Source: Azolla caroliniana
Lineage: Eukaryota > Plantae > Polypodiophyta
Length of the DNA stretch: 64,000 bases
Reading direction: 5' to 3'
Assembly: GCA_043228905.1 (NCBI GenBank)
Contig: JBHGNT010000010.1
Coordinates: 2,418,001-2,482,000, forward strand
The notes beneath the pieces were generated by a model. The model saw only the letters and a list, made by a program, of their open reading frames with translations, ran no database searches and had not been told where the DNA came from. Both the position numbers and the translations under genes were made by a program. This document shows, piece by piece, positions 28,884 through 64,000 of this stretch. Numbering within the stretch: the stretch's first letter is position 1; each line of letters begins with the position of its first letter.

Positions 28884-31800
28884 CTAAGCAGTTACAGTGC
28901 GAGGATTTGCTGGGACCCGAACTAATGCGGCATTTTCTTCCACATGCATTACACTTCGCATACCAACAACACCAGCAGTCAGACCAGGTGTGGTTCGCAC
29001 AAACTGGAGTGCACATTGAGCATCAGTTCTTCTATCCCCAATCTCTGGAAACCACTCACGAACTTCAGGTTTGAAGCAATTGGAGAAGTTTGCCTACAAG
29101 GATTTGAACATTTGGTTATATTTAAGTAAACTCCAAATGCAATGTATCTATGTCAAATCACATGTCATGTAAAACTTTTGTTTTAAGTTAGATAAAATGC
29201 AATCAAATTTTATTTAGATATACATATTTAGATCAATATAGATTGAATCCAAATAGCATTAACTTAAATCCAGTTATATCTTAAGTTGAATTGGTTCTCA
29301 CTTAAATACTAGTCAATCTTAAATATGGTAATATCACTGTTAAATCCAATACAATAAGAGGCTTCTGTCAATTAAAATAGGAAAAGAAAACTAAGATCAA
29401 TGCACGTACTTGGTTAATGGCAGCTGTCCCTATGACTTGAACCCCAAGCTGATGTGCAGCATGAAGAGCAGGCATACGTTTCCCCTTGACAGATTGAACA
29501 GGTGATATGGCTGCATCCTTGTGTCTCAGACTGTATGGAAGCTGTACAACCTTGAAATGATGGTTCTCTCCCGCTAGACATGGAAATGGCACATTATGTT
29601 AGGAAATGTGGGTACTTACCAAATTGTAATATCTAAAGCCCGCTGTATTTCTAGATCCAAATCCTATTTCACAATATCAGAGCATATAATGTATGAAAAA
29701 TAATATGGTATCTACCCTACTGCCTCCATCCATTCCAAAAAGCACATGTACTTCTGTAGTCCAGAAATGATGTCACATGATCAGTGCATATCATAAATAC
29801 AGTGGATTATATGGACATCTCAAATATCGTATTCATTTCTAAACAGCACATGTATTTCTAGAGTCTAATGTATTCTTATCATCATCTAAATCTTCCATTT
29901 CTACTACTCATCAGTGCTTCATAATCAATCAATCTTGTTGTCATACTTCTCTACTACTTCTGAGTGTTTCTTCTAATAATCGATACATTCTATAAATGTA
30001 ACAATGTATATAAGAAGCTATCCATATCATTTCCCTCATCATTAAAAGCATCCTGGACTAAAGGCATACAATTAGGGATTAAATTAACAACATGAGACAT
30101 CATTCGTATAGATAGTCCTTCTGATTTAAAATTTCATACGCAGCATCAATGTCTTCCAAATTTCCAAAGCAAAGGACAAATCAAACTCTTATGTAACATA
30201 ATCACATCCAAAAAGAATTCTTCAAATAAAACGGGAAAGAGTGACAAATGTTTACCAACATCTTTCGCAAAATAAACCAATTCTTCCAAGCTTAAAGAAA
30301 GCTTGCCACTTGAAGCTATTCGAAATGCATTCCACGAGGCTACACCATACATCGAGATCTTTCCAGCTGCCACACATTCCTCCATAGCTTCAAATGCAGA
30401 TTTAATTCGAGAGAGCACAGTTTGTCGAGGAACAACATTCAGTTGAATTTCAGGATTATGAACAAAATAGATGTCAATTGTCTCTAGGTTCATGTTTCTC
30501 CTACTAATCTCGACCTGTTTGCACAAATAATAAGAAACTCTCTCCCTCCCTCTCTTACTCTCCCTCTCTTACTCTCCCTCTCTCTCTTACTATGCGCACT
30601 TTGCCCTAACCAAGTTCGAGAGTCTGAGCATCACACTTTGATACAATGCTCTGCCTTTAATCATATTCAACCATGCTTTCCACACATCTTCGACCAAGCC
30701 CAATCCTTGCACGAATTCCTCTTAAAACCACAATGTCCAATCTCGATTGCAATATTCATTGGTTAAGTTCTTGAACATTGAGAGTCACCACTCACTTTCA
30801 CATGTATCATGTGAAATGTAACATTTTTGGTCTCATAAGTCATATTTGACCTCCAAAGACGATAATAGAATCTATCTATCTATCCGGACATGTCAGAAGG
30901 TGCCCTTTTAATTATTTAGTATCAATATTTGTGTTTCTAATTTGGGACGAGGCATCAAAATAATATTACACAAGCACTAATATCTCCCACAAAATAATAC
31001 ATAAGGTTGGTGAACAAAAAGATGTTTATAGGTATTAGAACCATTGGTCAAAACTCACTTGGTTTTTAAGAAATGGCCCTGATAGGCAATGGCAACCTCC
31101 CACAAATTCGTTCAACTGAAAAAGTCCTGTTTTCACATATGTATCATCAATATATGTCCGTGGCTCAATATCCTCGCGGAAATCAAAGGATAAAAATCCT
31201 GCTTTCGAGCATACAATCACTTCATTCCTTTCAATCAGCTTCTGTTTGATTGCCCGATTTAATAGATGTCCAATGGCCACCTCACTTCGCATGTTTCTGA
31301 AGTTGCTTGCACTGTATCATCAAAAATATAATCCAAACATTATAGAATAACATAAGAACTACAAACTACCATGGATGAAAATGAATAATCCATAGCATAT
31401 TAGCATGCACATATGCATATCAATCATGTGCATATGTTTATATCAATTATATGTATTTTGATTAATGTAGGCGTATTTGAGCATAACAGATATGAAGGCA
31501 CTAGTAAGTCTCTAGTATGTATATACATATATATTAAATACATACATATATGTGTATGTATTTCATTAATATTGGAAGGTTCCCAGCACTGGATGTGAGA
31601 AGATGCCTACCAGTCAATGAAGTTGATGCCAAGAGTCATACTTCTTGTAACCGACTCTATATAGTCTCGGTCTTCTGCATCACTATCAGAACCTAGGTAA
31701 GTCCCATGTCCAAGTGAGGACACAACAAGATCTCCAGTTTTAGGGGTTCCTCTCAGTGTTCTGAAATGACCAGCAGCTGTCATACATGAAGAAAAGCTAC

Positions 31801-32907
31801 ATATCAATTCAAAGACACGGGAAAGATCTCGATTACTTTCAGATATACGCTTACACAAAGATAAAAAAGAGATGTATATCTAAATCTAGGTTTTCCAAAA
31901 CATGAATTTAATCTATCAGTACGAACCAACATGAAAAAGACCCATTGCTTTCATAAGTGTAGCTTCTCCAAAGAGCACAAAGAGAGGGAGGTTCAAAACA
32001 GGGTTTTTAAAACATGAATTTACACGTGACTTCTAGCAAACAGACATATCCATTAGCTACAGATATGCATGGCAATAAATGGCAAGGTGATGCTGCATTA
32101 ACCACTGTTTAGATAAAGCAGACATAGCCATTAGCGACAGATATGCATGATACAAGCACGATAGATGGATTTCAAAATCCCAAGAAAAGGATAAAAACAG
32201 GAACAAATGGCTAACATTGCTATCATCAATCAATAAACGGCAAGGTGAAGCTGCAGTAACCACTGCTTAGCTAAAACAGACGAAGAAAAAAGAAGAAGAA
32301 GAACGGAGGTCCAAAGCAACATTTGAAAACAGGAACCAAATGGCAACGTTACTAACGGCATCAAGCAGGGTAGGCGTCATTTAAACCACATCAGCCACTG
32401 TTTTAGATCATACGGAAGAAATGGAGATAGAATACTCAAAGCAAGGGTTTAAAAACGCGAGACGTTATAGGTCTACATCAGGCATTAAGCAGCACAGAGG
32501 AAATGCTAGGGCAGGTCGGACTCTCGTTAATGTGGCACCGAGGAGGAAGAAGAAGACGAGCTAGATCCATAGACGAGAAAGGGGTAGAGAGGTAGCGCAA
32601 ATTCAGATCAACAGCTATCAGAAGAGAATCAATCAAACAAAGCATAAACGAGGAAACGAGAGACACAGAGAGGGAGGGAGGAGGAAGAGGAAGAAGAAGA
32701 AATACCTGCTTGACCTGCAAATCGTTGTGCATAGCGGGTGGTACCGGCGGCGTCAGCGTGTCCAGGTATGTAGTTGGAAGAAGAAGACGGATATGTGGCG
32801 GCCACGGAGGAGAAGGAAGAAGGGAGGTGATGATACCTGGGAGAGGAAAGGGGGCGGCGACGCCATGGCTGGGCTCTGAGGAGCGCACGAGCGGCGGTGG
32901 TGGCCAT
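28884..32907 (-). CDS. Aldo/keto reductase-family protein of bacterial-type subfamily, probable organellar transit peptide; 6 exons
   Basis: Exons 32907-32706, 31776-31611, 31311-31059, 30514-30256, 29573-29410 and 29093-28884 join in frame at GT-AG sites. Motifs: VSSLGHGTYLG, GINFIDCASNF, VIVCSKAG, IDIYFVHNPE, GKISMYGVA, VVQLPYS, AQCALQFVR, VGMRSVMHVEEN. An in-frame upstream ATG at 33027 is an alternative start. Confidence 0.88.
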
Positions 32908-33070: not shown

Positions 33071-33199
33071 CCATACATACATACATACATACATACATAC
33101 ATACATACATTACATACATACATAGATAGGCGCACACATACATTACATACATACATACATAGGCGCACACATACATTACATAGATACATAGATAGGCAC
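33071..33199 (+). repeat. (CATA)n microsatellite grading into a ~33-bp minisatellite (left flank of MULE-1)
   Basis: About 9 CATA units, then units of ataggc(a/g)cacacatacattacatacatac. Confidence 0.9.
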
Positions 33200-33340
33200 G
33201 CTCGTTGCTATCCTGCACCAAATCATAAAGAGGGCTGGTGAGGGAATCGCGGCCACAGACGGTGCAGGTCGCCTAGAGGAAGGTGCGTGCGATCTGCACC
33301 GTCAGATTTCGATAAGGAAGAGCGCGCGGAAAAAAAAGTT

Positions 33341-33582
33341 GTCAGAGGTCGCCCAACTCTGAGTCGATGGTCACCCAACCCTGTCAGAGGTCACCCAACT
33401 CTGAGTCGATGGTCACCCAACCCTGTCAGAGGTCACCCAACTCTGAGTCGTTGGTCGCCCAACCGAAATTGGTCACCCAACTATGACTGTTGCAAGTTGC
33501 CCAACCGTTTTAGGTCACCCAACCCTGACAGTTACAGGTTGCCCAACCGATTGGTCTCCCAACCGTTGCAGGTCGCCCAACC
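33341..33582 (+). repeat. Left subterminal array of about 12 GGTC(A/G/T)CCCAAC motifs, including a 42-bp unit x3
   Basis: gtcagaggtc(a/g)cccaactctgagtcg at 33341, 33383 and 33425; further motif copies every ~18-24 bp. Confidence 0.88.
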
Positions 33583-33633
33583 AAATGTATCATTCCAACC
33601 AAAATCTTCAAATAAGCTTGTTAATTACCCTTA

Positions 33634-33906
33634 AAACTTACAATAACATATCAAATAGTCACAAAATTCAACCTTAAAATACTTAAAACCGACGATCTTT
33701 ACCATACTTATGTTAAAACAAATAATCATATTAAAACATAAAAGTTGAAAGTTAAAAAACATTTAAAACATAAAACGAAGAATGTAAACTTACAATAACA
33801 TATCAAATAGTCACAAAATTCAACCTTAAATTACTTAAAACCGACGATCTTTACCATACTTCTGTTAAAACAAATAATCCTGGCAAAACATAAAAGTTGA
33901 AAGTTA
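33634..33906. repeat. 152-bp period tandem duplication just 3' of the transposase stop
   Basis: aaacttacaataacatatcaaatagtcacaaaattcaaccttaaa occurs at 33634 and 33786. Confidence 0.85.
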
Positions 33907-33914
33907 CCAAACAT

Positions 33915-36839
33915 TTATGGCTCATCCGGAGATGATGGCAAGATGCGACCACAATTCTTGCAACAATCAACATTTGAGTCCCTTGATCTAAAGGTCAAGG
34001 CATCGCAATGCAAGCATCGCATTTTATCTGTCGCACATATTGGCAACCGCCTCCTAGCTCGACTTGCGCCTCTTTGCATTTTTCCTGTGTGTGCCTTGGA
34101 AGTGTTTGGGGAGCTGCCAATAAGATCTTGTGAAATGTTGATTGATGCTCCCCTTTTTGCACCAATTGCTTGCTTACGCCCTATGGATCCACGGTCTTCT
34201 TCGTTAGTTGGTTTCGGTGCACCTGTGTGATACACCAATGTCTCACTTGTTTCTTGAATGGACTCCATACATGCCAAAATTGTTGCACAGTCGAGGGATT
34301 GTAACCCTTGCTTAAAACATTGAATAGCCCCCTCAAGCGTTTGTAATTTCGACAAACATTCCTCCACTCGTGATGTTATAGGGTTTGTCTCCTCGACTGG
34401 TTCTACCTCTGTCTCCATTTCCGTCTCTGTGAAATGGTCATTGCGCATATAGGTTGCATGATCTATAAAAGGCAATGACCCACATAGATGTGGCATGTGC
34501 CTCTCAATAATCATCCTGATGCCAAGTATATGCTTACATTTACTCGCAGGGTCGTGGCAATCACAATATGAACATTGGAGCGATACATTATACCATACAT
34601 CCGGTTTTGTCAAGCTCAATATTTTAAACCAATATCGAGGCTCGTCCACAATATGCATTGTCGCATTATTAGTTTCATACCTCTCTAGTAGCCTTTCGGC
34701 CTCTTTAAGTCTAGTTGTTTGATCCCTACAATTTGCACGTGGTGCAAATCTACCACTCTCACATATTTCTTGTCGTTGCTTGTACCATTCAATAACAGTA
34801 CCCCCGATGCAAGTGCCAGTTTGACTGTCCCCGATTAAAACATGCACAAGATCGGTAATTGATCGGTTTATCCTCCCTCTTAAGGCAGTATATTTGATAA
34901 ACTGCCAATGTCTCTCCACAAGATTGGTAGTGTCAACATGTCCGTAGTTGAACATTCTACCAAATTTGGGCCACAGTTTCCTCCACACACATGTCAAGCC
35001 ACACCATCCTCCTTCTATATATTGCCAAACACCTGGCTTGTTTGCATATTCTACCTTTAAGTCCTCACATTGGGCATTGAATGTGGATTCCGTAATGCAT
35101 TGCATGAGTTGGCACATCCGATTATAAAGGTGGTTTCTCTCACTTGCACTTACCTTTGGCAACAAGTTGTCCAACCATGCTTTTTTTGCATGGAAGTGAC
35201 ACAACAAAAGTCGACAATGTGTTTGCGACCTTTGCCCATTTGTAACTATCCAAGATAATCGGTCTGTTGCAACCACATTACTTATGGCATTATACGATGT
35301 CCAACTTTTATCGATGACTATGGCATTTGGCCTCACATTGGGCATCCGTGCAAATATGACTCTCAAGCAAGTTTCTAAAGCTACTTGCTCATGGTTAGAC
35401 CCCTTATCAGAACTACATATCATGTACCATAATGGGATACCAACTCCCATGGCATTTGGAGCCACAGCTGCATATAATGGCAAGCCAAATTGGTTTGTTT
35501 TAAACGTGGAGTCGATTGCCCAAGAGTTGTTTATCGACAGTCGCTCACACATCTCTAACATCCATTCATCTTGGAGCACCAAGATGAACGGTTGCCTTGC
35601 GGGAGATCCATATTCACCAGGCAAGTAGGGTTGGACATGAGCCACCTTCCCAAGATCTCGGAGGGCATAGGCATCTTGCATCATCAAAGACCAATCAACC
35701 CCTGACATGGCACTCCCGATTTTTAACTTGTTGGCCATGTTATTGACCTCCTTTGGTATCATAAAGAACCTATAACTCACAAGGTCTAATGGACTAGCCT
35801 TGGACTTATGATATGCTTCCTTACGCATGCTCATCCGTGCCACGTGTCGTGCGCAACCAACATCAAAAAGGTCATCTCTACAACAACTTATAACATTTGG
35901 GGCCACTGGCAAATAGTATGCATCTGGTCTACTTCCCGGTACATGACCCGTATGAGGTCCATATATTGAAAGGGTCACTGTCCCATGGTCAACCCCGCCA
36001 TTCATTCGAGCGTTCACATGAAAAGTACACCCACATCGAGATGAATGCTTTCTACGTCGAGTGCATGGATATTGCTTGTTGGCCACACCGAATCGGTGAC
36101 AATTATACCTAGTCACATGTGCACCCCTTGTGACCCCTGTACGAAAGCGTGTGTGATACCTCAATTGAACATCTATCAACGTATCATCAACCCTATGTGC
36201 CTCTATCTTGATCACTTCTATGGGTCTAGACTTTTTATATTTCACGACACTTGTCCCCTCCATGTCAGATGGAGTTAACCTCGACACAACTTGACAACCG
36301 CATTGGTCAATCACTGCTTTCACATACGCACTAGGGATCCCATAGTCACGAAGGTCATTGGACCAATTTCTCTTTAATTCTGTCAGAGTACCTGTCAAAG
36401 AACGGTGCGATGCGCCACAATGTGACGCCAATACTATCTCCCTCCATTTCTCTACGTGCGTAATCTGAAGATGAGGCGATGCCTTAAGGTGTATTGCATT
36501 CTCACTCATAAGCGTGAGACGACTCTTCATGCGCCTCCATGCATGTAAATTAAGAGGTGCCCCCCTTGCGAGTGTGCTTAATATTTCAAATGTTACCTTA
36601 ACTTGACCTAATAAATCTTTAAGCATTAAATCGTACATACCTCTAGTGAACGCAATATACCTCGCCGAACAATACATGAAGGGATCAACCTCCTCCGCCT
36701 CTTCTTCGGATGAAGCCGACTCATAGTCTTCGGATGTAGACGAATCCAAGTCATCGTCGATGGTTGCGGAGTATGGTGATGCATAACCATCCTCAGAATC
36801 ATACAAGGACGTGATTAAATCTATTTCGTTGGGATTCAT
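33915..36839 (-). CDS. MULE/Mutator-family DDE transposase with SWIM zinc finger (974 aa)
   Basis: WAIDSTFKTN (first D), IVIDKS (second D), LLCHFH (CxxH), TTNLVERHW (E), SWIM-like CDCHDPASKCKH, FAR1/WRKY-GCM1-like YNCHR...RCGC...HTGH and C-terminal CLHC...CKNC. Uninterrupted ORF. Confidence 0.93.
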   Translation of the reverse strand: MNPNEIDLITSLYDSEDGYASPYSATIDDDLDSSTSEDYESASSEEEAEEVDPFMYCSARYIAFTRGMYDLMLKDLLGQVKVTFEILSTLARGAPLNLHAWRRMKSRLTLMSENAIHLKASPHLQITHVEKWREIVLASHCGASHRSLTGTLTELKRNWSNDLRDYGIPSAYVKAVIDQCGCQVVSRLTPSDMEGTSVVKYKKSRPIEVIKIEAHRVDDTLIDVQLRYHTRFRTGVTRGAHVTRYNCHRFGVANKQYPCTRRRKHSSRCGCTFHVNARMNGGVDHGTVTLSIYGPHTGHVPGSRPDAYYLPVAPNVISCCRDDLFDVGCARHVARMSMRKEAYHKSKASPLDLVSYRFFMIPKEVNNMANKLKIGSAMSGVDWSLMMQDAYALRDLGKVAHVQPYLPGEYGSPARQPFILVLQDEWMLEMCERLSINNSWAIDSTFKTNQFGLPLYAAVAPNAMGVGIPLWYMICSSDKGSNHEQVALETCLRVIFARMPNVRPNAIVIDKSWTSYNAISNVVATDRLSWIVTNGQRSQTHCRLLLCHFHAKKAWLDNLLPKVSASERNHLYNRMCQLMQCITESTFNAQCEDLKVEYANKPGVWQYIEGGWCGLTCVWRKLWPKFGRMFNYGHVDTTNLVERHWQFIKYTALRGRINRSITDLVHVLIGDSQTGTCIGGTVIEWYKQRQEICESGRFAPRANCRDQTTRLKEAERLLERYETNNATMHIVDEPRYWFKILSLTKPDVWYNVSLQCSYCDCHDPASKCKHILGIRMIIERHMPHLCGSLPFIDHATYMRNDHFTETEMETEVEPVEETNPITSRVEECLSKLQTLEGAIQCFKQGLQSLDCATILACMESIQETSETLVYHTGAPKPTNEEDRGSIGRKQAIGAKRGASINISQDLIGSSPNTSKAHTGKMQRGASRARRRLPICATDKMRCLHCDALTFRSRDSNVDCCKNCGRILPSSPDEP

Positions 36840-36845
36840 CTCGAA

Positions 36846-37310
36846 TGAATCTAACTAATCTGATTAAGAATCTAACTAATCTGGTTATAAGAATCTAACT
36901 AATCTGATTATACCTGATTAAGAATCCCCCTAATATGATTAAGACTCTAACTAATCTTATTAAGAATCTAACTAATGTGATTAAGAATCCCCCTAATCTG
37001 ATTAAGAATCTAACTAATCTTATTAAGAATCTACAAAATCTGATTATAATTGATTAAGAATCTAACTAAGATGATTAAGAATCTAACTAATCTGATTAAG
37101 AATCCCCCTAATCTGATTAAGAATCTAACTAATCTTATTAAGAATCTACAAAATCTGATTATAACTGATTAATAATCTAACTAAGATGATTAAGAATCTA
37201 ACTAATCTGATTAAGAATCCCCCTAATCTGATTAAGAATCTAACTAATCTTATTAAGAATCTAACTAATCTGATTATAACTGATTAAGAATATAACTAAT
37301 CCTGATTAGC
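36846..37310. repeat. AT-rich ~21-bp minisatellite immediately upstream of the transposase ATG
   Basis: About 20 units of aagaatctaactaatctgatt, with variants (aagaatccccctaatctgatt) in a higher-order pattern. Confidence 0.92.
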
Positions 37311-37541
37311 TTTTAGAGATTGTGCAAAATAAGAATGTGATTAAGACGCAGAATGTGATTATAAGACAGATATTGGAGATGCAATGAGCTATGATTAAAA
37401 TGACAGAGAATGGTTTAAAGTGACAGAGAATGTGATTAATTTACATGTTAAGATGACCGTTTTTCTGGCCGTTTACATAACAGGTTGGGCGACCTGGTTG
37501 GGTGACCAAAACAAAAGATAATTAATTTTAAAAGGTTTGGG

Positions 37542-37882
37542 CAATACCACAACTTGCGATTGGTTTAAAACCATACATTCAGAACATCCACAATAATTGT
37601 TGGGAACAACATTTCCATTAACAAGTAATCGCGTTTACAATACCACAACTTGCGATTGGTTTAAAACCATACATTCAGAACATCCACAATAATTGTTGGG
37701 AACAACATTTCCATTAACAAGTAATCGCGTTTACAATACCACAACTTGCGATTGGTTTAAAACCATACATTCAGAACATCCACAATAATTGTTGGGAACA
37801 ACATTTCCATTAACAAGTAATCGCGTTTACAATACCACAACTTCCGATTGGTTTAAAACCATACATTCAGATCATCCACAAT
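37542..37882. repeat. 96-bp tandem repeat, 3.5 near-identical copies, overlapping the stop codon of the accessory gene
   Basis: caataccacaactt(g/c)cgattggtttaaaaccatacattcaga starts at 37542, 37638, 37734 and 37830. Confidence 0.93.
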
Positions 37883-38509
37883 ATTCGGATATATTTTTGT
37901 CGATTTCTGTAGTACTTGATTTCCGGGTCCATGAATCTTTTGAGTGATCTTTGACGCTCATAACTGTTAAAGCATGCCCCCGGAATACCCTCCTCCTCCT
38001 CTATACGCATCCCTCGTGGTAGGACTACGTCTATTGCATGTTCTCTGCGTAAATGTGACTCCATGTCACTTTTTTTCCGATACCACCTTGGCGAGAGGCG
38101 GCAAAACTCAGTGTAGATACATGCACGAGCCTTGTTCCCATTTGCATCTCTTCCAACCTTATACAACAAGTCGGGACGAGGAGCAACTGTTCCTTCTGCA
38201 CATGTGTTACATATTTAAGATTGACATAAAGATTGGCATAAAGATTGAGATATTGCAACGACACCAAATCCACATACCATTTGGAGGAGCATCTTGGTCC
38301 ATTTTGTCCCCACTCGTACACATGTCGGCTCCTCGACTTCGCCAATGTCTTCTAACGAAGACCCTTTAACAAATCACGAGTCAACATACATGCATCAAAC
38401 CCTAAACCATTCTTGGGGGAGATTGGTTCGTGACATACCTCTCTTGAGTTGGATATATATCACTGTTATCGAAATCCCACCAATCTTTGTACTTGGAGTT
38501 GGAAGTCAT
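37867..38509 (-). CDS. Putative 3-exon transposon accessory gene, 161 aa, single C2H2-like zinc finger
   Basis: Exons 38509-38439, 38363-38278 and 38195-37867. Both introns (75 and 82 nt) begin GTATGT and end AG with compatible phases. Product: MTSNSKYKDWWDFDNSDIYPTQERVFVRRHWRSRGADMCTSGDKMDQDAPPNEGTVAPRPDLLYKVGRDANGNKARACIYTEFCRLSPRWYRKKSDMESHLRREH...ILWMI. Confidence 0.7.
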
Positions 38510-38816
38510 CTACCCCCATTCAAGTAATCAAACATTTTTTGATTTTAGTACTCAAACACACAAAATATCAAGTTTAAGCAAGCAAATCATTCAAAACCAA
38601 CAATCAAAATATAGATGATTAAATCAAGTTTAAGCAAGCAAATCTAGTGAACGCAAGATCATAATAAGTTTGATAGGCCTCACCTATAGTGTGGATAAGA
38701 GTGGTTACATCCTCTTCTAGATTATGCCTTCAAGATACTGGCTGGGATTAGAGTGGCTGGAAATCAACAAAGCCTTGCCTATTAGATCCTATTATACTTC
38801 ACTTATGGTTCGCTTA

Positions 38817-38958
38817 TCTTCTTGTCTATAGTGACTCTAAACCCTAAAGCTTAAACATGTCTATGCATCAATATGGTCCATACAATCTTCTTGTCTATAG
38901 TGACTCTAAACCCTAAAGCTTAAACATGTCTATGCATCAATATGGTCCATACAATCTT
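38817..38958. repeat. 69-bp tandem duplication containing a telo-box (aaaccctaa)
   Basis: cttgtctatagtgactctaaaccctaaagcttaaacatgtctatgcatcaatatggtccatacaatctt occurs at 38821 and 38890. Confidence 0.85.
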
Positions 38959-39181
38959 GCTTGTTTTCATTATTATTAAGAAGCGATGAATATAACATTG
39001 TGGAAGATATAATAACAAGGAGCATACCTGGGAATAGTGATGGAGGAGATCGATTTGTGATGGAGGAGATCGATTTGTGCAGCCACAGACGATTTGTGAT
39101 GGAGGAGCTCCCACCTCTTTCCCGGCAAACCCAACCTGTCAATCTCGTTTGAAAAAATGACAGATTATGACAGGTTTAGGG

Positions 39182-39189
39182 CTTTTATA
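39182..39189 (-). promoter_or_regulatory. Candidate TATA box for the accessory gene
   Basis: TATAAAAG on the minus strand, just inside the right subterminal array and pointing into the element. Confidence 0.4.
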
Positions 39190-39196
39190 GACATCC

Positions 39197-39580
39197 CTAA
39201 AGGAGTCTCCCAACCTGGATAAACAGGTCTCCCAACTGTTTTAAAAATCAACAGTTGGGTGACCTGCTTCTTTTATTGAGTTGGTTGGGTGACCAACTCA
39301 ATATAAACTCTAAAGGAGTCTCCCAACCTGGATAAACAGGTCGCCCAACTGTTTTAAAAATCAACAGTTGGGTGACCTGCTTCTTTTATTGAGTTGGTTG
39401 GGTGACCAACTCAATATAAACTCTAAAGGAGTCTCCCAACCTGGTTAAACAGGTCACCCAACCTAGTTAAAAATAAACAGTTGGGTGACCTGCTTTTTTT
39501 TTTGAGTTGGTTGGGTGACCAAATCAACCAAAAATTTAAAAAAAAAACGGTTGGGAGACCTCTGACAGGGTTGGGCGACC
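39197..39580. repeat. Right subterminal array: 113-bp unit x3 carrying GGTC(A/G/T)CCCAAC motifs in both orientations
   Basis: ctaaaggagtctcccaacctgg at 39197, 39310 and 39423. Each unit contains the inverted pair caggtcNcccaac...gttgggtgacctg. Confidence 0.88.
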
Positions 39581-39728
39581 GCCTGCGCAGCTTTTTTTTT
39601 GGCGCCTTCTTCCTCTTCCAAATCGGACGGTGCAGATCACACGCGCCTTCTCTGAGCGACCTGCACCGTCTGTGGCCGCGATTCCCTCACCAGGCCTCTT
39701 TATGATTTGTGTCATAATAGACACGTCG

Positions 39729-40075
39729 GATAGGCACACACATACATTACATACATACATAGATAGGCACACACATACATTACATACATACATAGATAGG
39801 CACACACATACATTACATACATACATAGATAGGCACACACATACATTACATACATACATAGATAGGCACACACATACATTACATACATACATACATAGGC
39901 ACACACATACATTACATACATACATACATAGGCACACACATACATTACATACATACATACATACATAGGCACACACATACATTACATACATACATACATA
40001 GGCACACACATACATTACATACATACATAGGCATAGGCACACACATACATTACATACATACCTAGGCACACACAT
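39729..40075 (+). repeat. 33-bp minisatellite (about 10 units) between MULE-1 and MULE-2
   Basis: Unit gataggcacacacatacattacatacatacata, with the same sequence and orientation as 33100-33199. Confidence 0.93.
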
Positions 40076-40579
40076 GCTCGTGACTTTAACAACTACCAAA
40101 AAAAATTTAAGAGGGCAAGTGAGGGAATCGCGAGTGCGGACGGTGCAGGTCGCACCGTTGATGGCGCGTGCGATCTCCACCGTCCAATGTGGATAAATAG
40201 CTGACAGTGACTATCACTAGGAGCCCCGACTTTGTCACAAGGAGGCTCTGCCACGAGGAGCCCGACCAACTTTGGGTAGGAGCCCGACTCTCAAAAAAAT
40301 AAAACTAATAAAGAATAAAACAATGATATATACAACAAAAGTGAATAGGGTCGTGGTTATAGTTTTGTCTAAGATATGTTAGGTCTATGGTTCAAATCCT
40401 TTCCTTCTTTGAATTCTTTCTTTTTGGTTTTCTTCTTCATTGATTTCTTTCTTTTTTAGGGTTTCGACATTTGGTTTAGGGTATGTAGTCACTTTACACT
40501 TCATTTACATTTAAGGGGTCGTAATAGTGGTATTGAATTCAACACCTTAATTACTAAATGTGTTCATGGTGCCATAATA

Positions 40580-41646
40580 CAGTAACCATTCGGTTATGTG
40601 CGCGCCCACTTAAGTGCACCATTCTATTAAGTGCGCTTTTTATAGAGGTTAAAATCCCGATCAAAAAAATTACATTGTTCATGATGAAACTACATCAAAC
40701 GAAATTAAAACTATGTTCCAAACATTCAAAAAACAATAAAAGAAAGGAGTTTCTAACAAAAATAATAATTTAAAGAATTTGTTACGTGATGGTGGGTGGG
40801 GTCTCCTGGAAATGCACAAAGAGAAATGCAAGGAAAAAGAGAACCAAATCTCAGAATTGGTCTCTCCCGTCGTAGCGTTTGTGTGCGTGTTATGTGTTGT
40901 ATGTGTGTGTGTGTAGAATTGTGAGTAGGTAATTTTGATTCTCGTTAAAGAAAATAAACTTTCCTACTTAACCCAATTATCCTTTTCCTTTTCCGTATTC
41001 ATTCAATCTTAATTATGTTTCTTTCTTTCTCTCCCTCCCTCACTTTCTTAATTTTGTTTCTTTCTCTCCATCTCTCCTCCTCCCGCCACCGCCGCCGCCA
41101 CCTCCTCCCGTCACCACCTTCGTTCATTCTTAATTTTCTCCTTCTTTCTTTCACTCCCTCACTCCCTCCTCCCTCTCTTTCTCTTTCTGTACATCTCGTT
41201 TATTTTCTTTCTGTTCCAACCTATGCTTTCTCAGTTGCTCCTCCTCTCTCTTTTTCGGTCTCCTCCATCTCCATCTCTACTACGATTCCTCAAACCTCCC
41301 ACCACTAGGAAGAGAATGCAAAGAAAAATCTAATCATATCCAAGGAAGTTCATTAGGTAGGCCTAGCAAAAAGGCAAAAACTCAAGGTAATATGGAATCG
41401 GGAAAAAGTGATATCCAACAAGAGTATGATGAAACCATAAACATTTCAGGTCAATTATATCACATTAATCGATCACTTTTCTAATGAAGAAATATATGAT
41501 ACAAACAGAGAAGGGGAAAATTTCAAGAAACTCTAAAATTTTTCAAAAAGGCCCAATTTTTTTTAGAAAACCCCTAAATGCGCAGCTCGGTTAAGTGCAC
41601 ACTTCACCCATGCGTTCAAAGTGCGAACTTAACCGAATGGTTACTG
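40580..41646. mobile_element. Tc1/mariner-type non-autonomous element nested in MULE-2
   Basis: Perfect 17-bp TIR cagtaaccattcggtta ... taaccgaatggttactg, flanked by TA on both sides (40578-79 and 41647-48). Confidence 0.88.
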
Positions 41647-44439
41647 TAGTCTAAAAGGTGTAAATTTGTCATCATCAAACACTTAACCATGTGTTGTTGA
41701 TCGTACCTTTGTGCCCAACTTTCAAGAGCTCATTTGCCAAATAAAAATAGAATGGCAAGCACCACTACTTCTCCCTAGATGGCCACTTAGCTTCCACAAT
41801 TATTATATGATAGTTTCGCATCAACAAGTTACAACATGATGAATTCTCATCTTTTGTAATTGTAAATCTTTTACCCTATGATCCTTCTAATCTGCATCGA
41901 GCCCTTAACACTTTTGTTCAAGTAAAGTTAGCTCGGCTATGTTTGATTGTCACTTTAATATGCAACTCACTCATGTTCCAAGTAAAGATAACTCTCATAA
42001 TTTGGGCTTTTTCTTTATTATTTGACTTTATACCATGGAATACTCTACCTATGGATCATGAGCCAACATAAGAAGATATGAGTCCACCAATAGTTGCTAA
42101 CACTATTACCACCACCATGTTAGAAGTGAACCTGAAAAGTTATATAGCTTTTAACTTCCAGCAAAAAGATAAACATGGATACAAAACCTTGAGACCTCCG
42201 ATACAAACGATGCATTGGACGACCATGATGTATCCTCCAATTCATCTTCCGACATGGCAAAGACACCATGATGCATTGTGCTCTCCATAGATGGTTGTGG
42301 TCTATTACTACGGTGATTGAAGTGAGTGAATACAATGTGATTGAGAATGCAGTGATTGAAGTGAATGTGAGCAATTATGCCAATGAATAAAGTGAATGAA
42401 TTCAAATGAATGCCAATGATTGAAGTTCGAATGAATTCCATGTGATTGATAATGCACATGAATGAAGTAGATGATTTCAGTTTCTTCAATGATCTAGTTC
42501 GAGAATAATTTCAACACTTCGAGAATGATTTCAACTCTTAGTGAATGATCGAGAATGCCAATTGTTCGTGAATGATTTATGTGGTTTGATTAATCACTAC
42601 GGTGAATGAAATCAGTGCGAGTGATTAATAGACAGTGAATGAAGTGAATGATTTCAGCTCTTAGTGAATGAGTTCACCTCTTAGTGCATGGTAGTGACTT
42701 TGGTGAATCAATTTAGTACGATTGTTAGTATGATCGTTGCAAGCCCATCATTTCACGTAGTTGGGAACCTGCCTATTAATGAGTAGGGCTCCTCATTAAT
42801 CAGTCGAGCTCCCTCTTTTGATATGAGCCGGGCTCCTCATTGGAAAAATTGGAATGTTGAAATCAATTAAGCTTCCACGTCATTCAATTAAGCTTCCTCA
42901 TGTTCGAGTCATTCATAGGCTTTTCAATAATGATGTTTTCACTATCCATATTATTGGATTTGGGGCACCTAGCACCCTTTCTTACAAAAACCCTAAACCA
43001 TCATTCAAGTTAGCACACAAACATCACTATTTATACACAATATATAGTTGAGAAATGATTCATGCCATATCTCCCTTCATAGGGTATTGTTTCACCCCAA
43101 TCCACATAAAAGTATGTGAAGGGCTTGGACCGACTAACCATCTGTACAAACCACATGCCATTTTCAATAACCACCAATATGTCAATTGCATTCAAGTTCA
43201 AATTTCACAATCCAAGCACACTAAGAAATCGTCAGATGCATGCAACAATTTTTATTGATATAGCTAAATAATTGGGTGGAAACAAGTCCATATATAATAA
43301 CATATGAAATATTCAATGGAGAAATGTGGAACATGCAGGTGTCTCCAATAGCATTTTGAATATGGCATACGAGAAGCAAGAAGAAAAAGGGATACAAAAG
43401 GAGCCCATGAAATCAGAGACACCACACAAACATGTTATTCATGGTGATTCAAATACATTGCATATTAAAATGTTTGAAATATATAAATTTTCAAATCCTA
43501 CTTTGATTACAAAGCCTATTGTATGTCTAGAACCATATTTGAGAACCTAGTCCTCTTAATAAGATACCGATGTAGAGTGGAAGACTTCAAACATTTAGAA
43601 TATGGCATATGAGAAACAAATGGTTCCATATTCAAACATGATTTCCATATTTCGAAGGATCACGTGGAAGAATTCAAACATTTAGAATATGCAGGCACAC
43701 ATACATACATGGTATTCATTGGCTATAATGACATGTCCTCATGGTGATTATATCTATGCTTACAATGCTTAACTAATCTCTGCTACATAATATTATCATT
43801 GTCGTCATCCAATAGGAAAATAACAAACCTATTATGTGTAACCACATCTGTGTGCTTGAAATAATTGCATTCCTACGTATGTAAACATGAATACATAAGT
43901 GCTCAAGATAATCGTACCTTGTGTTGTAACTAAGTACGTGAGATAATCAATGCTTGAACAAACATATTTTGTGTTTCTTTGAGCTTAGTTTCATTTGGTG
44001 GAAAACAATGAAAATGGGTTGAAAGAAAATACAAAAATGTTATTTCTAATTCAACATTTTTTCATATTGATGGTGAAATTATAACAATGCATTTATATGA
44101 TACATTTGAAAAATGAAACAACTAAGTCTCTCACCATGTTAGAATATGGAACCATGTGATCAAATGTAAATGAAAAGAAACCTTAAACGATGTAAAAAAT
44201 AAAAATAACCATGAAAATACATACCTGTTATTGCTTTCGTTTTGCGGATCGAATGTAGGTGGTTGGGAAGTGCTCGCTGGCGGAAAGTGGTGCTCCTCTC
44301 TGATTCTTCCCTCCAAATACCCTAAAACTCTCTTTTAAAAATAGATTCTAAATGAGCGATTCAGGGTTTTTATTTTTTATTTTTCCCCTAAAAAACTCCT
44401 TCCATTAGTTATAAAATTTTACAAATGAGACGATTATGT

Positions 44440-44900
44440 ACAAATCCCTGAAGGGCCACGATAGTTCCATCTTATGTGCATGCCCACTGACTCAAGAAAG
44501 GGAGAGGACGACCATTGTTGGATGAAGGCTATTCGTTGTCTTTCAACTCCCTTGGAGCCATCATTAAGGCCATCATATTGGCTCTTCAGAGTGGCTACAA
44601 TTTCACTCCATATCTCTAGCAGTAACCTTTGTTGGATGTGCGGTTTGGTTGGAGAAGACTTGCCTATATCGTTGTTTCCATAGAATCCAAAGAGTTATTG
44701 GGCTGACCAATTCCAACACCTCATGAGATTTGTCATTAAGAGGAGTGGAGTGGACATTGTCGCCGGAGGAGAAAAAGACCTCTTGTGCTTGTATCACCAA
44801 AGTCATCCCCTCCTCCCGATGCTCGTATTTGCCAATTGCGGCCTACCATGATAGCCAACATATATTTCCTCACTTGATTGAGCCTTGCACTTGACATAAT
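44440..44900 (-). mobile_element. L1-type LINE 3' fragment nested in MULE-2
   Basis: Minus-strand LVSPITLWILWKQRYRQVFS resembles the conserved W-x-I/L-W-K-x-R-N-x-x-V-F motif near the C-terminus of plant L1 ORF2. Confidence 0.55.
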
Positions 44901-45186
44901 TGCAACAAGCAGCCAACCTCATTAATAATGAGTGGGGCTCCTTTTGACAGAGTCGGGCTCCTATTGACAGAGGTTGTCAGACAGCGGGGCTCCTAGTCGG
45001 GTTCTTGTTTAGTAAGCGGGGCTCCTAGTCAGGCTCCCCAAGAAGTGACGATTTCTTCGCGCGTTTTTTTCCCCCCACATCGGACAGTGCAGGTCGCACA
45101 TGCCCTCGATTAAGCGACCTGCATCGTCCCTCTCCGCAATTCCCTCACGTGCCCTCTTCAATTTTTGGAGGTATTTAGACACGTCG

Positions 45187-45228
45187 ATGTATGTATGTAT
45201 GTATGTATGTATGTATGTATGTATGTAT
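45187..45228 (+). repeat. (ATGT)n microsatellite at the right flank of MULE-2
   Basis: About 10 perfect atgt units directly after ...acacgtcg, in opposite orientation to the (CATA)n arrays on the left. Confidence 0.92.
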
Positions 45229-46105
45229 GCATGCATGTTCATGCTTATTGCTATGAATGTAAATATGTATGTATCATGTATGTGTATGCAATATTGTATA
45301 TACATCATATAAGAAGTTTTGTTCATCCCTTGTTAGGGTTAGAGTTGAATTTAGGGTTTCCTTTCCATCTCAGAGCGAGCGGAGGTCCTCCATCGCAGAA
45401 CAAATCAAGCTCGTCAGCAAACAAGAAACCCTATTCTCCATCTCATCTGGTACCTCCATCCCCTTGTCTCTTTTGCTTCATTTGTTGTTCAATCCCTTGA
45501 CGAGAGAGCATGTTTCCACAACCGATATTCCTTACGATTTTCGGTTTGTTTTCTGTGCTTTCCAACGTCTTTGTCGGAGCTTTTTGTTTTTGAAGATGTT
45601 TCTTTCGATTTTCTGTTCATTTTCATTTTTGTTCTTCGCGTGGTTTGATCTCTTTACTGAAGACGGCTTTTTGGAGACCTTTTCCTTCAAATTTTCTACA
45701 TTTCCTTCAAATTCTGCGTGTTCTGCAATTCGGTATCTCCATTGGATTTATTTTTCACTGCAGAGATTCCTTCATTTTGTACATGCGTGGATTTTCTGAT
45801 AAAAATTCAGAGCTTTTGATGTCTGATAATCCGTCAGTATTACGTTTCCTGTTATAGCTCAGTCTCCTGACTCGATCTTTTTTTATAGGTCTTTTAGCAA
45901 ATTACAAATTCCTGTGGTCTCTGTGCTTCAAGCCCTTGCTTCGTTTTCTGCAGCAAGTTATTCAATCATTTGGTACGTTTTTAGAGTTTCTTATCAAAAT
46001 TCTGACTTCCCCATGACAGACAATGGTTCAGATTTCTTGAATCCATGTTGTTTTCACAGATTACAGTAAATTCCAGTGTTTTGTGACTTAAAATCTGTCA
46101 TTTTC

Positions 46106-48040
46106 ATGGCGGACAATGCTTCTCTTGATGACGAACTATTGGCAGCTGTTGGAAGAAGCAGTGGTGGAGGAGGAAGCAGAAAACCACCGTTTTCTCGTTC
46201 CTCTGTAAAACGAGGAAGAAGTGGAGAAAGCTCTGATGAAGATGATTATGAGGAAGGCCCTGGCGAGTTCAAAGCCGACACAGACGAGGAAGAAGAGGAG
46301 GAGGAGGAGGAAGAAGATTCAGAAACTGATAAACTGCAGGGAACTGGCAATAGAAAAGCTTCTGGATCTAAGATGCCTCTTAAAAAGAGAATAGATAAGG
46401 ATGAAGGATTGGATGATGGATATGCCTCTGATGATGCTCCTTCATATGGTAGTGATCTGTATAAAGATGAAGCAGACAAAGAAGAACTTGGTAAGATGAC
46501 AGAACTGGAAAGGGAGATGATCTTATTAGAGAGAGGAGAGAAGAGAGAAGATTACTTGGCTAGGAAGAAGGCTGGATCTCGACAACAGAAAGAGATTAGT
46601 ATTAATGGAGCCACTAGTAGGCAGAAAGACCTTCAAACTCCTCCTTCATCCTCTCGGATGAGATCATCGACCAGAGATTCTTCTCGGAGTGTTAACAAGA
46701 ATGCTCTCAATAAGCTTATCTCTGCAAGGCAACAGAAAGCACACGAGTCTGATCAGAGGAGGAATAGTTCAACTAGGAGGCCATCTCCCCCTAGCCACAG
46801 GAGGAGACCTGGTGGTGATGTTGAAGCTAGTGATGAATCACAAAATAGTGACGATGAGAGAGATCGAGACCATGACAGGCGAAGGTATTCTAGAAATACT
46901 AGTGTTAATGATGGTGGCCATAGTGACGATGATCAAGAGGATCATCATGCTGATATCACTCTAGAAGATGTGAATAGCATTACCATCAAAAGATCTAAGC
47001 TTGCAAAGTGGTTCCTTGAACCTTTCTTTGAAGAAATCATTGCTGGATGCTTTGTAAGGGTTGGTGTAGGGTCGAAAGATAATCATAATATGTATCGTCT
47101 ATGTCAAGTAAAGAATGTAGATGCAAGAGATCATGACAAACAATATAAATTTGAGAATAGGATGACTCATAAATGGCTGAATCTTGTATGGGGTGATTCC
47201 GAAGCAAGATGGCAAATGGCTCGGATTTCTGATCAAGCACCAACTGTAATAGAGTTTAATCAGTGGTGTAGAGAGGTTGAGAAATCACACTCTCGCAAGC
47301 CATCTTTGGTAGATATAACAGATAAAAAAGAAGCTATTGCCAAGCTAAATACTTTTGTTTATTCTGCCGATCTTGTTAAGAAAATGCTACACGAGAAGAA
47401 AATGTCTTTATCTAGGCCATCAAATGTGGCCGCGGAGAAGGACAGACTTCTAAAAGAGATGGCTATTGCTGAAAGTAAAAATGACCATGTTGATATTGAG
47501 AGAATCCAGGTGAGGCTGAAGGAGTTAGAAGCATATTCAATGCAGAATCAGAATAAGAATGCAAAGGCTATGGCATTAGCAGAGATGAACAAGCGGAACA
47601 GGTTTGAGAATTTCAAGAATGCTTCTGAATTGAAGCCAGCAAGCCATGCAAGGGCTGGTGAAGCAGGATATGATCCATTCTCTCGTAGATGGACACGTTC
47701 ACAGAACTATTATGATAAGACTTCTAATGGTGAGATTAATGAATCATTGAAAGAAGGTGAAGATGCCAGTGCCATTGCTGCTGATTCTGGCAAGCTTATA
47801 GATACGAAAGCTCCTTTCACTGAGGATAAAAAGCTATTTTCTCTACATGATTTCGATCTTCCAATAAGTTTAGCGGGAATACAGAAGTTTGGCGGTGCGC
47901 TTGGTGCTCATTTGGCCTTCATTGCGAGGAAGCAAAGAGTTGAAGCTACCTGTGGAGTTCCTGTTGAGAACAGCGATGGGAGAAGGCATATGCTTACGCT
48001 CACTGTTAATGACTACAAACGAAGAAGAGGTTTGCTGTGA
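46106..48040 (+). CDS. VIP5: RTF1 homolog / VERNALIZATION INDEPENDENCE 5 (Paf1 complex, Plus3 domain)
   Basis: Intronless CDS. GSDLYKDEADKEELGKMTELEREMIL, Plus3 (RSKLAKWFLEPFFEEIIAGCFVRVGVG...YRLCQV), GYDPFSRRWTRS and C-terminal LTLTVNDYKRRRGLL. Confidence 0.95.
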   Translation: MADNASLDDELLAAVGRSSGGGGSRKPPFSRSSVKRGRSGESSDEDDYEEGPGEFKADTDEEEEEEEEEEDSETDKLQGTGNRKASGSKMPLKKRIDKDEGLDDGYASDDAPSYGSDLYKDEADKEELGKMTELEREMILLERGEKREDYLARKKAGSRQQKEISINGATSRQKDLQTPPSSSRMRSSTRDSSRSVNKNALNKLISARQQKAHESDQRRNSSTRRPSPPSHRRRPGGDVEASDESQNSDDERDRDHDRRRYSRNTSVNDGGHSDDDQEDHHADITLEDVNSITIKRSKLAKWFLEPFFEEIIAGCFVRVGVGSKDNHNMYRLCQVKNVDARDHDKQYKFENRMTHKWLNLVWGDSEARWQMARISDQAPTVIEFNQWCREVEKSHSRKPSLVDITDKKEAIAKLNTFVYSADLVKKMLHEKKMSLSRPSNVAAEKDRLLKEMAIAESKNDHVDIERIQVRLKELEAYSMQNQNKNAKAMALAEMNKRNRFENFKNASELKPASHARAGEAGYDPFSRRWTRSQNYYDKTSNGEINESLKEGEDASAIAADSGKLIDTKAPFTEDKKLFSLHDFDLPISLAGIQKFGGALGAHLAFIARKQRVEATCGVPVENSDGRRHMLTLTVNDYKRRRGLL

Positions 48041-63704: not shown

Positions 63705-64000
63705 GAACGAGTTCATCGTATGATCGATTCGAGTCGCCCACATGTGTCTGTCTGCCGGTGTGTGTCGGTTCATCCGAGATTTCTTCTCTTTCTCTTTTTT
63801 TTTTTCTTCTTCTTCTTCTTCTTCTGGTTGCTAGCTTAGTAAAAGCTTTCTTGGTGAAGAAGAAGAAGAAGAAGAAGAAGAAGAAGGAGGAGGAGGAAGA
63901 GAGGCTTTGTGTTGTGCTCTGCTATGCTCTACTAAAGTAAAAAATCAAAGGCAACCAGAAAACTGCATTTTACTTTCCCCACTTTTCTTCTTCTTCTTCT

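What the first reader, a model, noticed from the sequence alone, without database searches (positions are those of the whole stretch)
33200..45186. Two Mutator-like elements share identical asymmetric termini (GCTCGT...TAGACACGTCG) and dock in the same CATA-derived repeat
Seen: MULE-1 (33200-39728) and MULE-2 (40076-45186) have different interiors and subterminal motifs. Yet both begin 5'-GCTCGT and end TAGACACGTCG-3', and all four junctions abut CATA/TATG-type repeats. The outermost bases are not inverted repeats (left GCTCGTTGCTAT versus right read inward CGACGTGTCTAT), although both MULE-1 ends lie exactly 19 nt outside the true inverted repeat. Established: Mutator elements usually end in matching G...C TIRs, make 9-11 bp TSDs and show weak sequence preference; microsatellite targeting is known for only some DNA transposons. 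Inference: this is a MULE lineage with polarised left and right ends that targets (CATA)n-type repeats as a landing pad. I cannot tell from the sequence whether it is already catalogued.
Basis: partly seen in the sequence, partly recalled or inferred. Interest (0 to 1): 0.85.

Follow-up and report, generated by a model that had tools for sequence, protein, structure and literature searches.

The report
Lopsided-ended fern transposon favouring CATA repeats
Two related Mutator-type jumping genes, likely from a fern, sit side by side in a CATA repeat; in related copies the two ends differ in their outer three letters and half sit in such repeats, likely because the enzyme prefers this bendable DNA, a habit already known from flowering-plant elements that target TA repeats.

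Summary
MULE-2 is a transposase-less derivative of a sister family, in the same orientation, with no duplication. In 52 independent junctions from public contigs, 26 start GCT and 26 start CGA/CGT or a variant; nt 4-11 are shared. So the asymmetry is 3 nt, not 19. It tracks element side (26 of 29, p=2.4e-5) and persists across families whose TIR bodies have diverged. 23 of 46 flanks are CATA/TATG-rich against 28 of 811 controls, but 17 of 46 are not repeat-like and the repeat runs either way: a preference, not a polarised landing pad. Microsatellite-targeted MULEs that stack into non-nested arrays and often lack duplications are published (SaTar, MuTAnT, Ac-mMITE). What I did not find in print: this habit with a tetranucleotide target, in a transposase clade whose nearest relatives are in ferns, lycophytes and lancelet, and the conserved 3-nt end mismatch. 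Repbase and Dfam could not be checked. Verdict: new variant of a known kind.

The parts
33072..33199 (+). (CATA)9 followed by about 3 units of a 33-bp CATA-derived minisatellite; left flank of MULE-1
33191..33199 (+). left copy of the 9-bp TSD GATAGGCAC
33200..39728 (-). MULE-1, 6529 bp, family A; young; lacks about 1.55 kb that the 7724-bp relative L019 holds
   Evidence: 4 mismatches in 2925 nt to the L019 transposase ORF
33200..33380 (+). GCT-type end (3' of the transposase); TIR about 84% identical to the other end from nt 20
33340..33563 (.). subterminal CACCCAAC-motif tandem repeats (20-42 bp units), mirrored at 39197-39527
33915..36839 (-). intact 974-aa MULE transposase ORF: PF10551; D443, D510, E642; C547xxH550; W555; SWIM-like Cys/His cluster near aa 756-770 (read by eye)
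   Evidence: best fold match ISCth4 of the IS256 family
37867..38214 (-). truncated exon of a second gene (zinc-finger-like, read by eye); in L019 and L035 it continues and is followed by a Ulp1/Peptidase_C48 ORF that MULE-1 has lost
39549..39728 (-). CGA-type end (5' of the transposase)
39729..39737 (+). right copy of the 9-bp TSD GATAGGCAC
39729..40075 (+). 347-bp spacer: 10 copies of the 33-bp minisatellite, 95% alike, linking MULE-1 to MULE-2
40076..45186 (-). MULE-2, 5111 bp; non-autonomous deletion derivative of family B; same orientation as MULE-1; no TSD
   Evidence: no transposase hit; collinear with L004, L035, L059, L065
40076..40194 (+). GCT-type end of MULE-2
44371..44917 (-). about 550-bp insert absent from relative L065; broken reading frames and an A-rich tail, LINE-like by a recalled motif (unconfirmed)
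45075..45186 (-). CGA-type end of MULE-2
45187..45290 (+). (ATGT)10 and a degenerate TATG tract, inverted relative to the left-hand arrays; a TATG-rich tract lies here in organisms B and C too
46106..48040 (+). host Plus-3 (RTF1-like) gene, pointing away from the array
30146..32907 (-). host gene(s) pointing away on the left: aldo-keto reductase exon (30146-30568) and a likely start codon at 32907; splicing between them is not shown

Best explanation
These are two sister families of one Mutator-like lineage, likely from a fern, whose transposase would cut and paste with a 9-bp duplication and likely prefers purine-pyrimidine-alternating DNA such as CATA/TATG repeats, in either orientation, so that copies pile up next to each other. 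Shown: element bounds, intact transposase, one exact 9-bp TSD, side-specific first three bases (GCT against CGA/CGT), a shared CGTGTCTA motif behind them, and repeat enrichment that fades over about 100-200 bp. Inferred: target choice by DNA shape at strand transfer; MULE-2 arrived first and MULE-1 later landed 347 bp away in the neighbouring minisatellite; MULE-2 lost its TSD afterwards when one end was joined to a second, oppositely oriented repeat (adjacent deletion or inversion). The transposase likely binds nt 4-11 and the core further in at both ends. The 3-nt mismatch is then either tolerated and rarely erased because conversion between TIRs seldom reaches the tip, or selected for an ordered left/right reaction; I cannot separate these.
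For: TSD exact at 9 bp in MULE-1 and 7 of 9 in L039. DDE, CxxH and W residues conserved; top five fold hits are ISCth4. The scan pattern came from the TIR core only, so tips and flanks were not selected for. 23 of 46 flanks CATA/TATG-rich against 28 of 811 local control tiles and 8 of 1723 window tiles; 28 of 46 alternating against 46 of 811; cover 0.41 at 0-10 nt, 0.20 at 50-75 nt, 0.05 at 200-300 nt. TA, AT, AC and CA steps are enriched 1.6-1.9 fold, AG/GA/AA depleted; in the 23 non-CATA flanks CA and AC stay 1.5 fold enriched. Raw reads of another organism give loose-end consensus flanks of the same kind at both end types (73 and 41 reads, agreement 0.61 and 0.71). TIR nt 4-75 is 86% identical between opposite ends within a family and 73% between same-side ends of different families, while nt 1-3 follow side. 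L007 and L014 carry a CGA tip on a 3'-side end, so conversion of the tip does occur, rarely.
Against: Only 1 of 5 two-ended elements has an exact TSD; MULE-2, L019 and L054 have none. L019 and L054 are short-read contigs through near-identical multi-copy elements and may join flanks of different copies, but MULE-2 is in the window itself. No empty site was recovered, so insertion into a pre-existing repeat is not shown. 17 of 46 flanks are not repeat-like. Homopurine tracts are not significantly rarer at junctions (1 of 46 against 41 of 811). All 4 clear adjacent pairs are head-to-tail (window, L035, L052, L053), which random orientation gives 1 time in 16. The junctions come from several unnamed samples, not from the window's genome.
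Confidence: 0.68

Rival explanations
1. SaTar-type second pathway: excised or copied-out circles carry microsatellite filler between the joined ends and enter genomic repeats by recombination, without a TSD. The unlike tips would mark a donor and an acceptor end, as in the asymmetric first step of IS256-family transposition.
For: MULE-2 has mismatched repeat flanks and no TSD, as reported for many SaTars, whose authors propose such circles (PMC5907723). 4 of 4 adjacent pairs are head-to-tail, one with a 2-bp spacer (L053). The best fold match is ISCth4, a copy-out/paste-in enzyme.
Against: MULE-1 sits in a minisatellite and has an exact 9-bp TSD. The L053 junction joins two different families, not one element's own ends. 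The eukaryotic MULE tested in vitro (Muta1) cuts and pastes through flank hairpins (PMC5499845). The ISCth4 match is weak (E 3e-5, TM 0.33-0.39 on the target) and expected for any MULE. Simple recombination into one array does not explain flanks of opposite orientation.
Confidence: 0.12
2. No sequence reading: the element prefers open gene-proximal chromatin, CATA/TATG tracts mark such regions in this plant, and insertions in repeats survive selection better.
For: The array lies between two genes that point away from it. The TATG-rich tract upstream of the Plus-3 gene is present in organisms B and C. MULEs are known to insert near genes (PMC6446971; PMC10401008).
Against: Enrichment falls from 0.41 at the junction to 0.09 at 100-200 nt and 0.04 at 300-500 nt, sharper than a promoter-sized window. 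CA/AC steps are enriched even in non-CATA flanks. Young family-A copies also sit in pure repeats (L034/L041, L050).
Confidence: 0.1
3. The repeats are largely a product of insertion: short seeds expand by slippage during gap repair or after cycles of excision.
For: The 10 minisatellite copies right of MULE-1 begin at the TSD and are more uniform (95%) than those on the left (89%). Occupied sites carry longer repeats than empty ones in MuTAnT (PMC4486113) and TAFT (as cited in PMC5907723).
Against: Degenerate, old-looking tracts extend 50-100 nt from many junctions. Element tips hold no CATA seed. The tract by the Plus-3 gene is shared with related organisms. Expansion can add to targeting without replacing it.
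Confidence: 0.06
4. One reading: polarised ends dock in (CATA)n in a fixed orientation as an obligatory landing pad.
For: All four window junctions are in or beside such repeats.
Against: No orientation bias (3:6 and 7:7, Fisher p=0.67), 14 of 46 flanks without any tract, 3 of 29 side exceptions.
Confidence: 0.03

Closest known systems
SaTar elements of guayule, rice, sorghum and citrus (PMC5907723; parts 1-4 of 6 of the text read, supplements not seen)
   Same: MULEs flanked by microsatellites; unrelated families stacked in non-nested arrays linked by repeats; some copies with 9-10 bp TSDs, many with flanks inconsistent with a TSD; autonomous partners exist.
   Different: Mostly (TA)n; angiosperms; mostly short non-autonomous elements; 60-95% repeat-flanked in guayule against 50-61% here. 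I saw no side-specific terminal bases in the parts read.
MuTAnT of Medicago (PMC4486113; parts 1-2 of 4 read)
   Same: MULE family with an autonomous member, microsatellite preference, 9-bp TSD visible at non-repeat sites, gene-proximal.
   Different: Jittery-like transposase; (TA)n target in 204 of 218 copies; matching GGGG/CCCC tips.
Ac-mMITE of pineapple and rice Micron (PMC8449440, PMC12550479; passages; Micron's own paper not read)
   Same: Mutator-derived, repeat-flanked, clustered by adjacent insertion, a minority with 9/10-bp TSDs.
   Different: (TA)n target; matching GA...TC tips; no autonomous partner found in pineapple.
Heteromorphic Mu elements of maize (PMC10401008; passages)
   Same: Elements with dissimilar left and right TIRs transpose; conversion can make the ends alike again.
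   Different: There the outermost 20 nt are the most conserved part across groups and the TIR bodies differ; here the bodies evolve together and the outer 3 nt stay different.
ULP1-carrying MULEs such as Kaonashi (as described in PMC2528002; passages)
   Same: Full-length copies (L019, L035) carry a Ulp1/Peptidase_C48 ORF.
   Different: Here it lies upstream of the transposase on the same strand; in the grapevine families it is described as downstream. Different transposase clade.

Membership tests
Mutator/MULE superfamily | DDE transposase with MULE domain, CxxH and W | tested here: met
   PF10551 35.3 bits over cut-off 27.6; D443, D510, E642, C547xxH550, W555
Mutator/MULE superfamily | 8-11 bp TSD | tested here: met
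   exact 9 bp at MULE-1; 7 of 9 at L039; absent at MULE-2, L019, L054
Mutator/MULE superfamily | long TIRs | tested here: met
   about 180 bp at 84% in MULE-1, about 110 bp at 73-80% in MULE-2
Mutator/MULE superfamily | matching terminal bases at both ends (usual, recalled; not required, since non-TIR MULEs exist) | tested here: not met
   GCT against CGA/CGT at nt 1-3
MuDR / Jittery / FAR1 clades of seed plants | DBD_Tnp_Mut or FAR1 DNA-binding domain and close sequence kinship | tested here: inconclusive
   neither domain hit in 22 of 22 aligned proteins; named relatives are Adiantum, Selaginella, Diphasiastrum and Branchiostoma; only 10 representatives were looked up by name and no seed-plant reference was in the tree
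SaTar-type microsatellite-targeted MULEs (a behaviour, not a clade) | most copies flanked by microsatellites | tested here: met
   23 of 46 CATA/TATG-rich, 28 of 46 alternating, 26 of 46 with a tract of 12 nt or more within 100 nt against 10 of 237 controls; at the low end of the published range
SaTar-type microsatellite-targeted MULEs (a behaviour, not a clade) | non-nested arrays of different families linked by repeats | tested here: met
   window, L035, L052, L053; 6 of 52 unique locus junctions face another element
SaTar-type microsatellite-targeted MULEs (a behaviour, not a clade) | (TA)n as the main target | tested here: not met
   top flank 6-mers are CATA/TATG permutations, then (CA)n
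SaTar-type microsatellite-targeted MULEs (a behaviour, not a clade) | empty orthologous sites hold the microsatellite | tested here: inconclusive
   contigs stop at the repeat
A catalogued Repbase/Dfam MuDR family | sequence match to a library consensus | not testable with these tools
   no such library on hand

The most novel reading that the evidence does not exclude
A deep MULE clade shared by ferns, lycophytes and lancelet evolved microsatellite targeting on its own, for a tetranucleotide, and its GCT and CG tips are functionally different ends kept by selection: they order the reaction (possibly an IS256-like copy-out circle) and build head-to-tail transposon arrays in gene promoters. An intact, recently active transposase makes this testable.
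Probability: 0.15. Interest if true: 0.78.

Novelty: new variant of a known kind. Interest (0 to 1): 0.47.

Why it matters
How MULEs find microsatellites, and why those insertions often lack TSDs, is open: the SaTar paper calls its own model speculative. The published cases I read are angiosperm, mostly (TA)n and mostly non-autonomous. This family offers an intronless, intact, young transposase with a different repeat target in what appears to be a distant clade, so it is a clean substrate for a target-choice assay and a likely case of convergence. The 3-nt left/right mismatch that survives TIR homogenisation is unusual, since terminal bases matter most in Muta1 assays (PMC5499845), and it would likely defeat annotation tools that require matching ends. 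Locally, 12 kb of elements now separate two divergent host genes.

Tried and rejected
No genome is held for this window, so no genome-wide census. TSD pairing between single-ended contigs gave only pure-repeat matches besides MULE-1's own: uninformative. A parity test (a 9-bp TSD in alternating DNA predicts equal Y and R at -1) gave 16:9, p=0.23: no verdict. Laying contigs on the right junction did not reach an empty allele; the tool skipped the repeat. No PDB sequence match. ESM Atlas, run with a Selaginella homologue, gave only generic MULE/SWIM clusters at 0.90 or below: a lead only. A profile search returned only fern-like proteins because of its word limit, so absence of seed-plant hits there is weak. 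Tree against named MuDR families not built: no reference sequences came from a tool. Rejected: a 19-nt asymmetric cap; MULE-2 as a chimera of unrelated ends (its ends and interior are collinear with family B); the GCT/TCG mirror symmetry as meaningful (no test, no chemistry that I know of); a Muta1-like terminal palindrome (fits CGA ends at nt 2-9 only, by eye). Ten literature searches found no fern or CATA-targeting MULE and no MULE with fixed unlike tips; three returned nothing. Yu, Wright and Bureau 2000, the paper most likely to tabulate unusual MULE termini, is not held. Supplements of the papers were not opened and may hold non-TA examples.
Full report
1. What is in the window. Both elements exist at the stated coordinates. 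MULE-1 (33200-39728) carries one uninterrupted 974-aa ORF on the minus strand (36839-33915) with a MULE domain above Pfam's cut-off, the residues D443, D510, E642, C547xxH550 and W555, and a predicted fold (mean pLDDT 69) whose five best matches are the IS256-family transposase ISCth4. It is flanked by an exact 9-bp duplication, GATAGGCAC, which breaks the phase of the 33-bp minisatellite and so is a true TSD. MULE-2 (40076-45186) has no transposase and no 8-11 bp duplication; its right flank is (ATGT)10, the reverse orientation of the CATA arrays on its left. The pair lies between a gene pointing left (aldo-keto reductase exon; likely start at 32907) and a Plus-3 gene pointing right.

2. Host and clade. 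Named relatives of the transposase are in Adiantum (42-51% over the searched part), then Selaginella, Diphasiastrum and Branchiostoma. Unnamed assembly proteins P0001-P0004 are 67-92% identical over the whole protein and form a fully supported clade with MULE-1 inside a fern-like group (25 rows, midpoint root). None of 22 aligned proteins hits the MuDR or FAR1 DNA-binding families. I infer a fern host and a clade apart from seed-plant MuDR/Jittery, but no seed-plant reference was in the tree. A survey of MULE diversity does not mention ferns or Selaginella and reports finding no MULE transposase in the lancelet (PMC6446971, passages).

3. Other copies. No genome is held. A scan of metagenome contigs with a pattern from the TIR core, about 40 nt inside the tip, gave 69 loci. 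I dropped L001-L003, which have no TIR upstream. From the other 66 I read 60 junctions. Left out: ends cut by a contig edge (L005, L042, L047, L055), rearranged tips (L009, L015, L031, L038, L043, L063), duplicate records (L020, L054, L059) and a weak second hit in L028. Removing repeats of one junction left 52; removing 6 ends that face another element left 46 for the flank test. The window's four ends are not in these counts. These are short-read assemblies from several unnamed samples.

4. The ends. 26 of 52 start GCT; 26 start CGA (17), CGT (6), TGA, CAA or CCA (1 each); TGA and CAA look like CpG decay (inference). Behind the tip both types share CGTGTCTA at nt 4-11. For 29 junctions that I could orient by hand from transposase or interior matches, the transposase-3' side has 15 GCT and 2 CGA, the 5' side 1 GCT and 11 CG/TG (p=2.4e-5). 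The exceptions are L007 and L014 (CGA tip on a 3'-side end; the shared stretch at the switch is 10-15 nt, likely too short for an assembly mix-up, so likely conversion) and L012 (a third family, other end unknown). TIR nt 4-75 averages 86% between opposite ends in a family, 90% between same-side ends in a family and 73% between families (15 ends). The TIR bodies thus evolve in concert while nt 1-3 keep their side across families A and B. This is the most unusual feature. In maize Mu the outermost 20 nt are the conserved part (PMC10401008), and in Muta1 changes nearest the tip cost most (PMC5499845).

5. The flanks. 23 of 46 have at least 40% of the 30 nt next to the tip in perfect CATA/TATG tracts, against 28 of 811 tiles 200-1000 nt away in the same contigs (p=9e-19) and 8 of 1723 window tiles. 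28 of 46 alternate purine and pyrimidine at 75% or more of steps (46 of 811 controls). 14 of 46 hold no tract and 17 of 46 pass neither test. The signal halves by 50-75 nt and is at background by 200-300 nt. Among repeat-flanked ends, both orientations occur at both end types. Some flanks are (CA)n, (TG)n or mixed arrays, and CA/AC steps stay enriched in the non-CATA flanks. Raw Hi-C reads of organism B give the same picture as consensus loose ends. An earlier pass with a coarser de-duplication gave 25 of 49.

6. TSDs and arrays. Of 5 two-ended elements, MULE-1 has an exact TSD, L039 matches 7 of 9, and MULE-2, L019 and L054 have none. L019 and L054 may be assembly chimeras. Adjacent pairs occur in the window, L035 (29-nt spacer), L052 (about 54) and L053 (2), each a GCT end facing a CG-type end; 4 of 4 is suggestive only. 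The empty site was not recovered, but a degenerate TATG tract upstream of the Plus-3 gene is present in organisms B and C.

7. Element anatomy. The full-length relative L019 (7724 bp) differs from MULE-1 by 4 of 2925 nt in the transposase ORF and has about 1.55 kb more, holding a Ulp1 protease ORF; family B (L035) has one too. ULP1 cargo is known in MULEs (PMC2528002). MULE-2 is collinear with family-B elements (97% over 1323 nt to L065), has lost both genes, and holds a 550-bp insert absent from L065. It is therefore likely older than MULE-1.

8. Mechanism. Most likely (0.68): cut-and-paste with a 9-bp stagger and a shape-based preference for alternating CA/TA/AT/AC-rich DNA, giving stacking in repeats, with later rearrangement at MULE-2. 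That such steps bend easily is established knowledge, recalled and not tested here. Rivals: recombinational entry of circles (0.12), open chromatin plus survival (0.10), repeats made by insertion (0.06), strict polarised docking (0.03).

9. Known or new. Microsatellite-targeted MULEs with non-nested arrays and frequent lack of TSDs are described: SaTar, MuTAnT, Ac-mMITE. The locus works like these. It is a MULE by transposase, TIR and TSD. It fails the (TA)n feature and is not shown to belong to their clades. Ten searches of the held library found no fern or CATA-targeting case and no fixed unlike tips; Repbase, Dfam, Yu et al. 2000 and supplements were not seen, so prior cataloguing is possible. 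Earlier scan notes held nothing on this element. Verdict: new variant of a known kind, interest 0.47.

Noticed in passing
L019 2511-4182; L035 5832-7377; window 37867-38214 (-): Full-length elements carry a second gene upstream of the transposase: a zinc-finger-like exon with no Pfam family and a Ulp1 protease exon, 44-57% identical between families. A candidate accessory factor.
   Followed up: partly
window 44371-44917: About 550-bp insert in MULE-2 with a WxxWKxR-like stretch and an A-rich tail; looks like a 5'-truncated LINE (recalled motif); no TSD seen.
   Followed up: partly
P0031, P0033: Two Branchiostoma floridae proteins match the fern transposase core at 36-39% (E 1e-76, 1e-70), although a 2019 survey found no MULE transposase in that species. 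Patchy distribution: loss or horizontal transfer untested.
   Followed up: partly
L053 90-125 (also L054, L059): A family-B GCT-type end and a family-A CGA end separated by only the two bases AT, in two assemblies.
   Followed up: partly
L008 60-330 and 815-1050; L012 3840-4100: A third family (P0004) has its GCT end 5' of the transposase, and the same flank of about 150 nt follows it in three places; probably an insertion inside another repeat that was then duplicated.
   Followed up: partly
L037 870-923; L036 3432-3439: L037 has a 24-bp direct duplication around a short CATA tract just outside the tip; L036 has the terminal 7 nt duplicated.
   Followed up: no
L011, L014, L031, L057 flanks: Repeat tracts that switch from TATG to CATA at short palindromes; these could be footprints of hairpin opening after excision (speculation).
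   Followed up: no
window 9057-9084: An unoccupied (ATAC)7 tract in front of a Surp/CID-domain coding region (8939-10252 +).
   Followed up: no
window 51262-51524 and 63794-63886: Two self-complementary stretches (70-73% identity), possibly small foldback elements.
   Followed up: no
window 33634-38964: MULE-1's interior holds several long-period tandem expansions (152, 115, 96 and 69 bp units).
   Followed up: no
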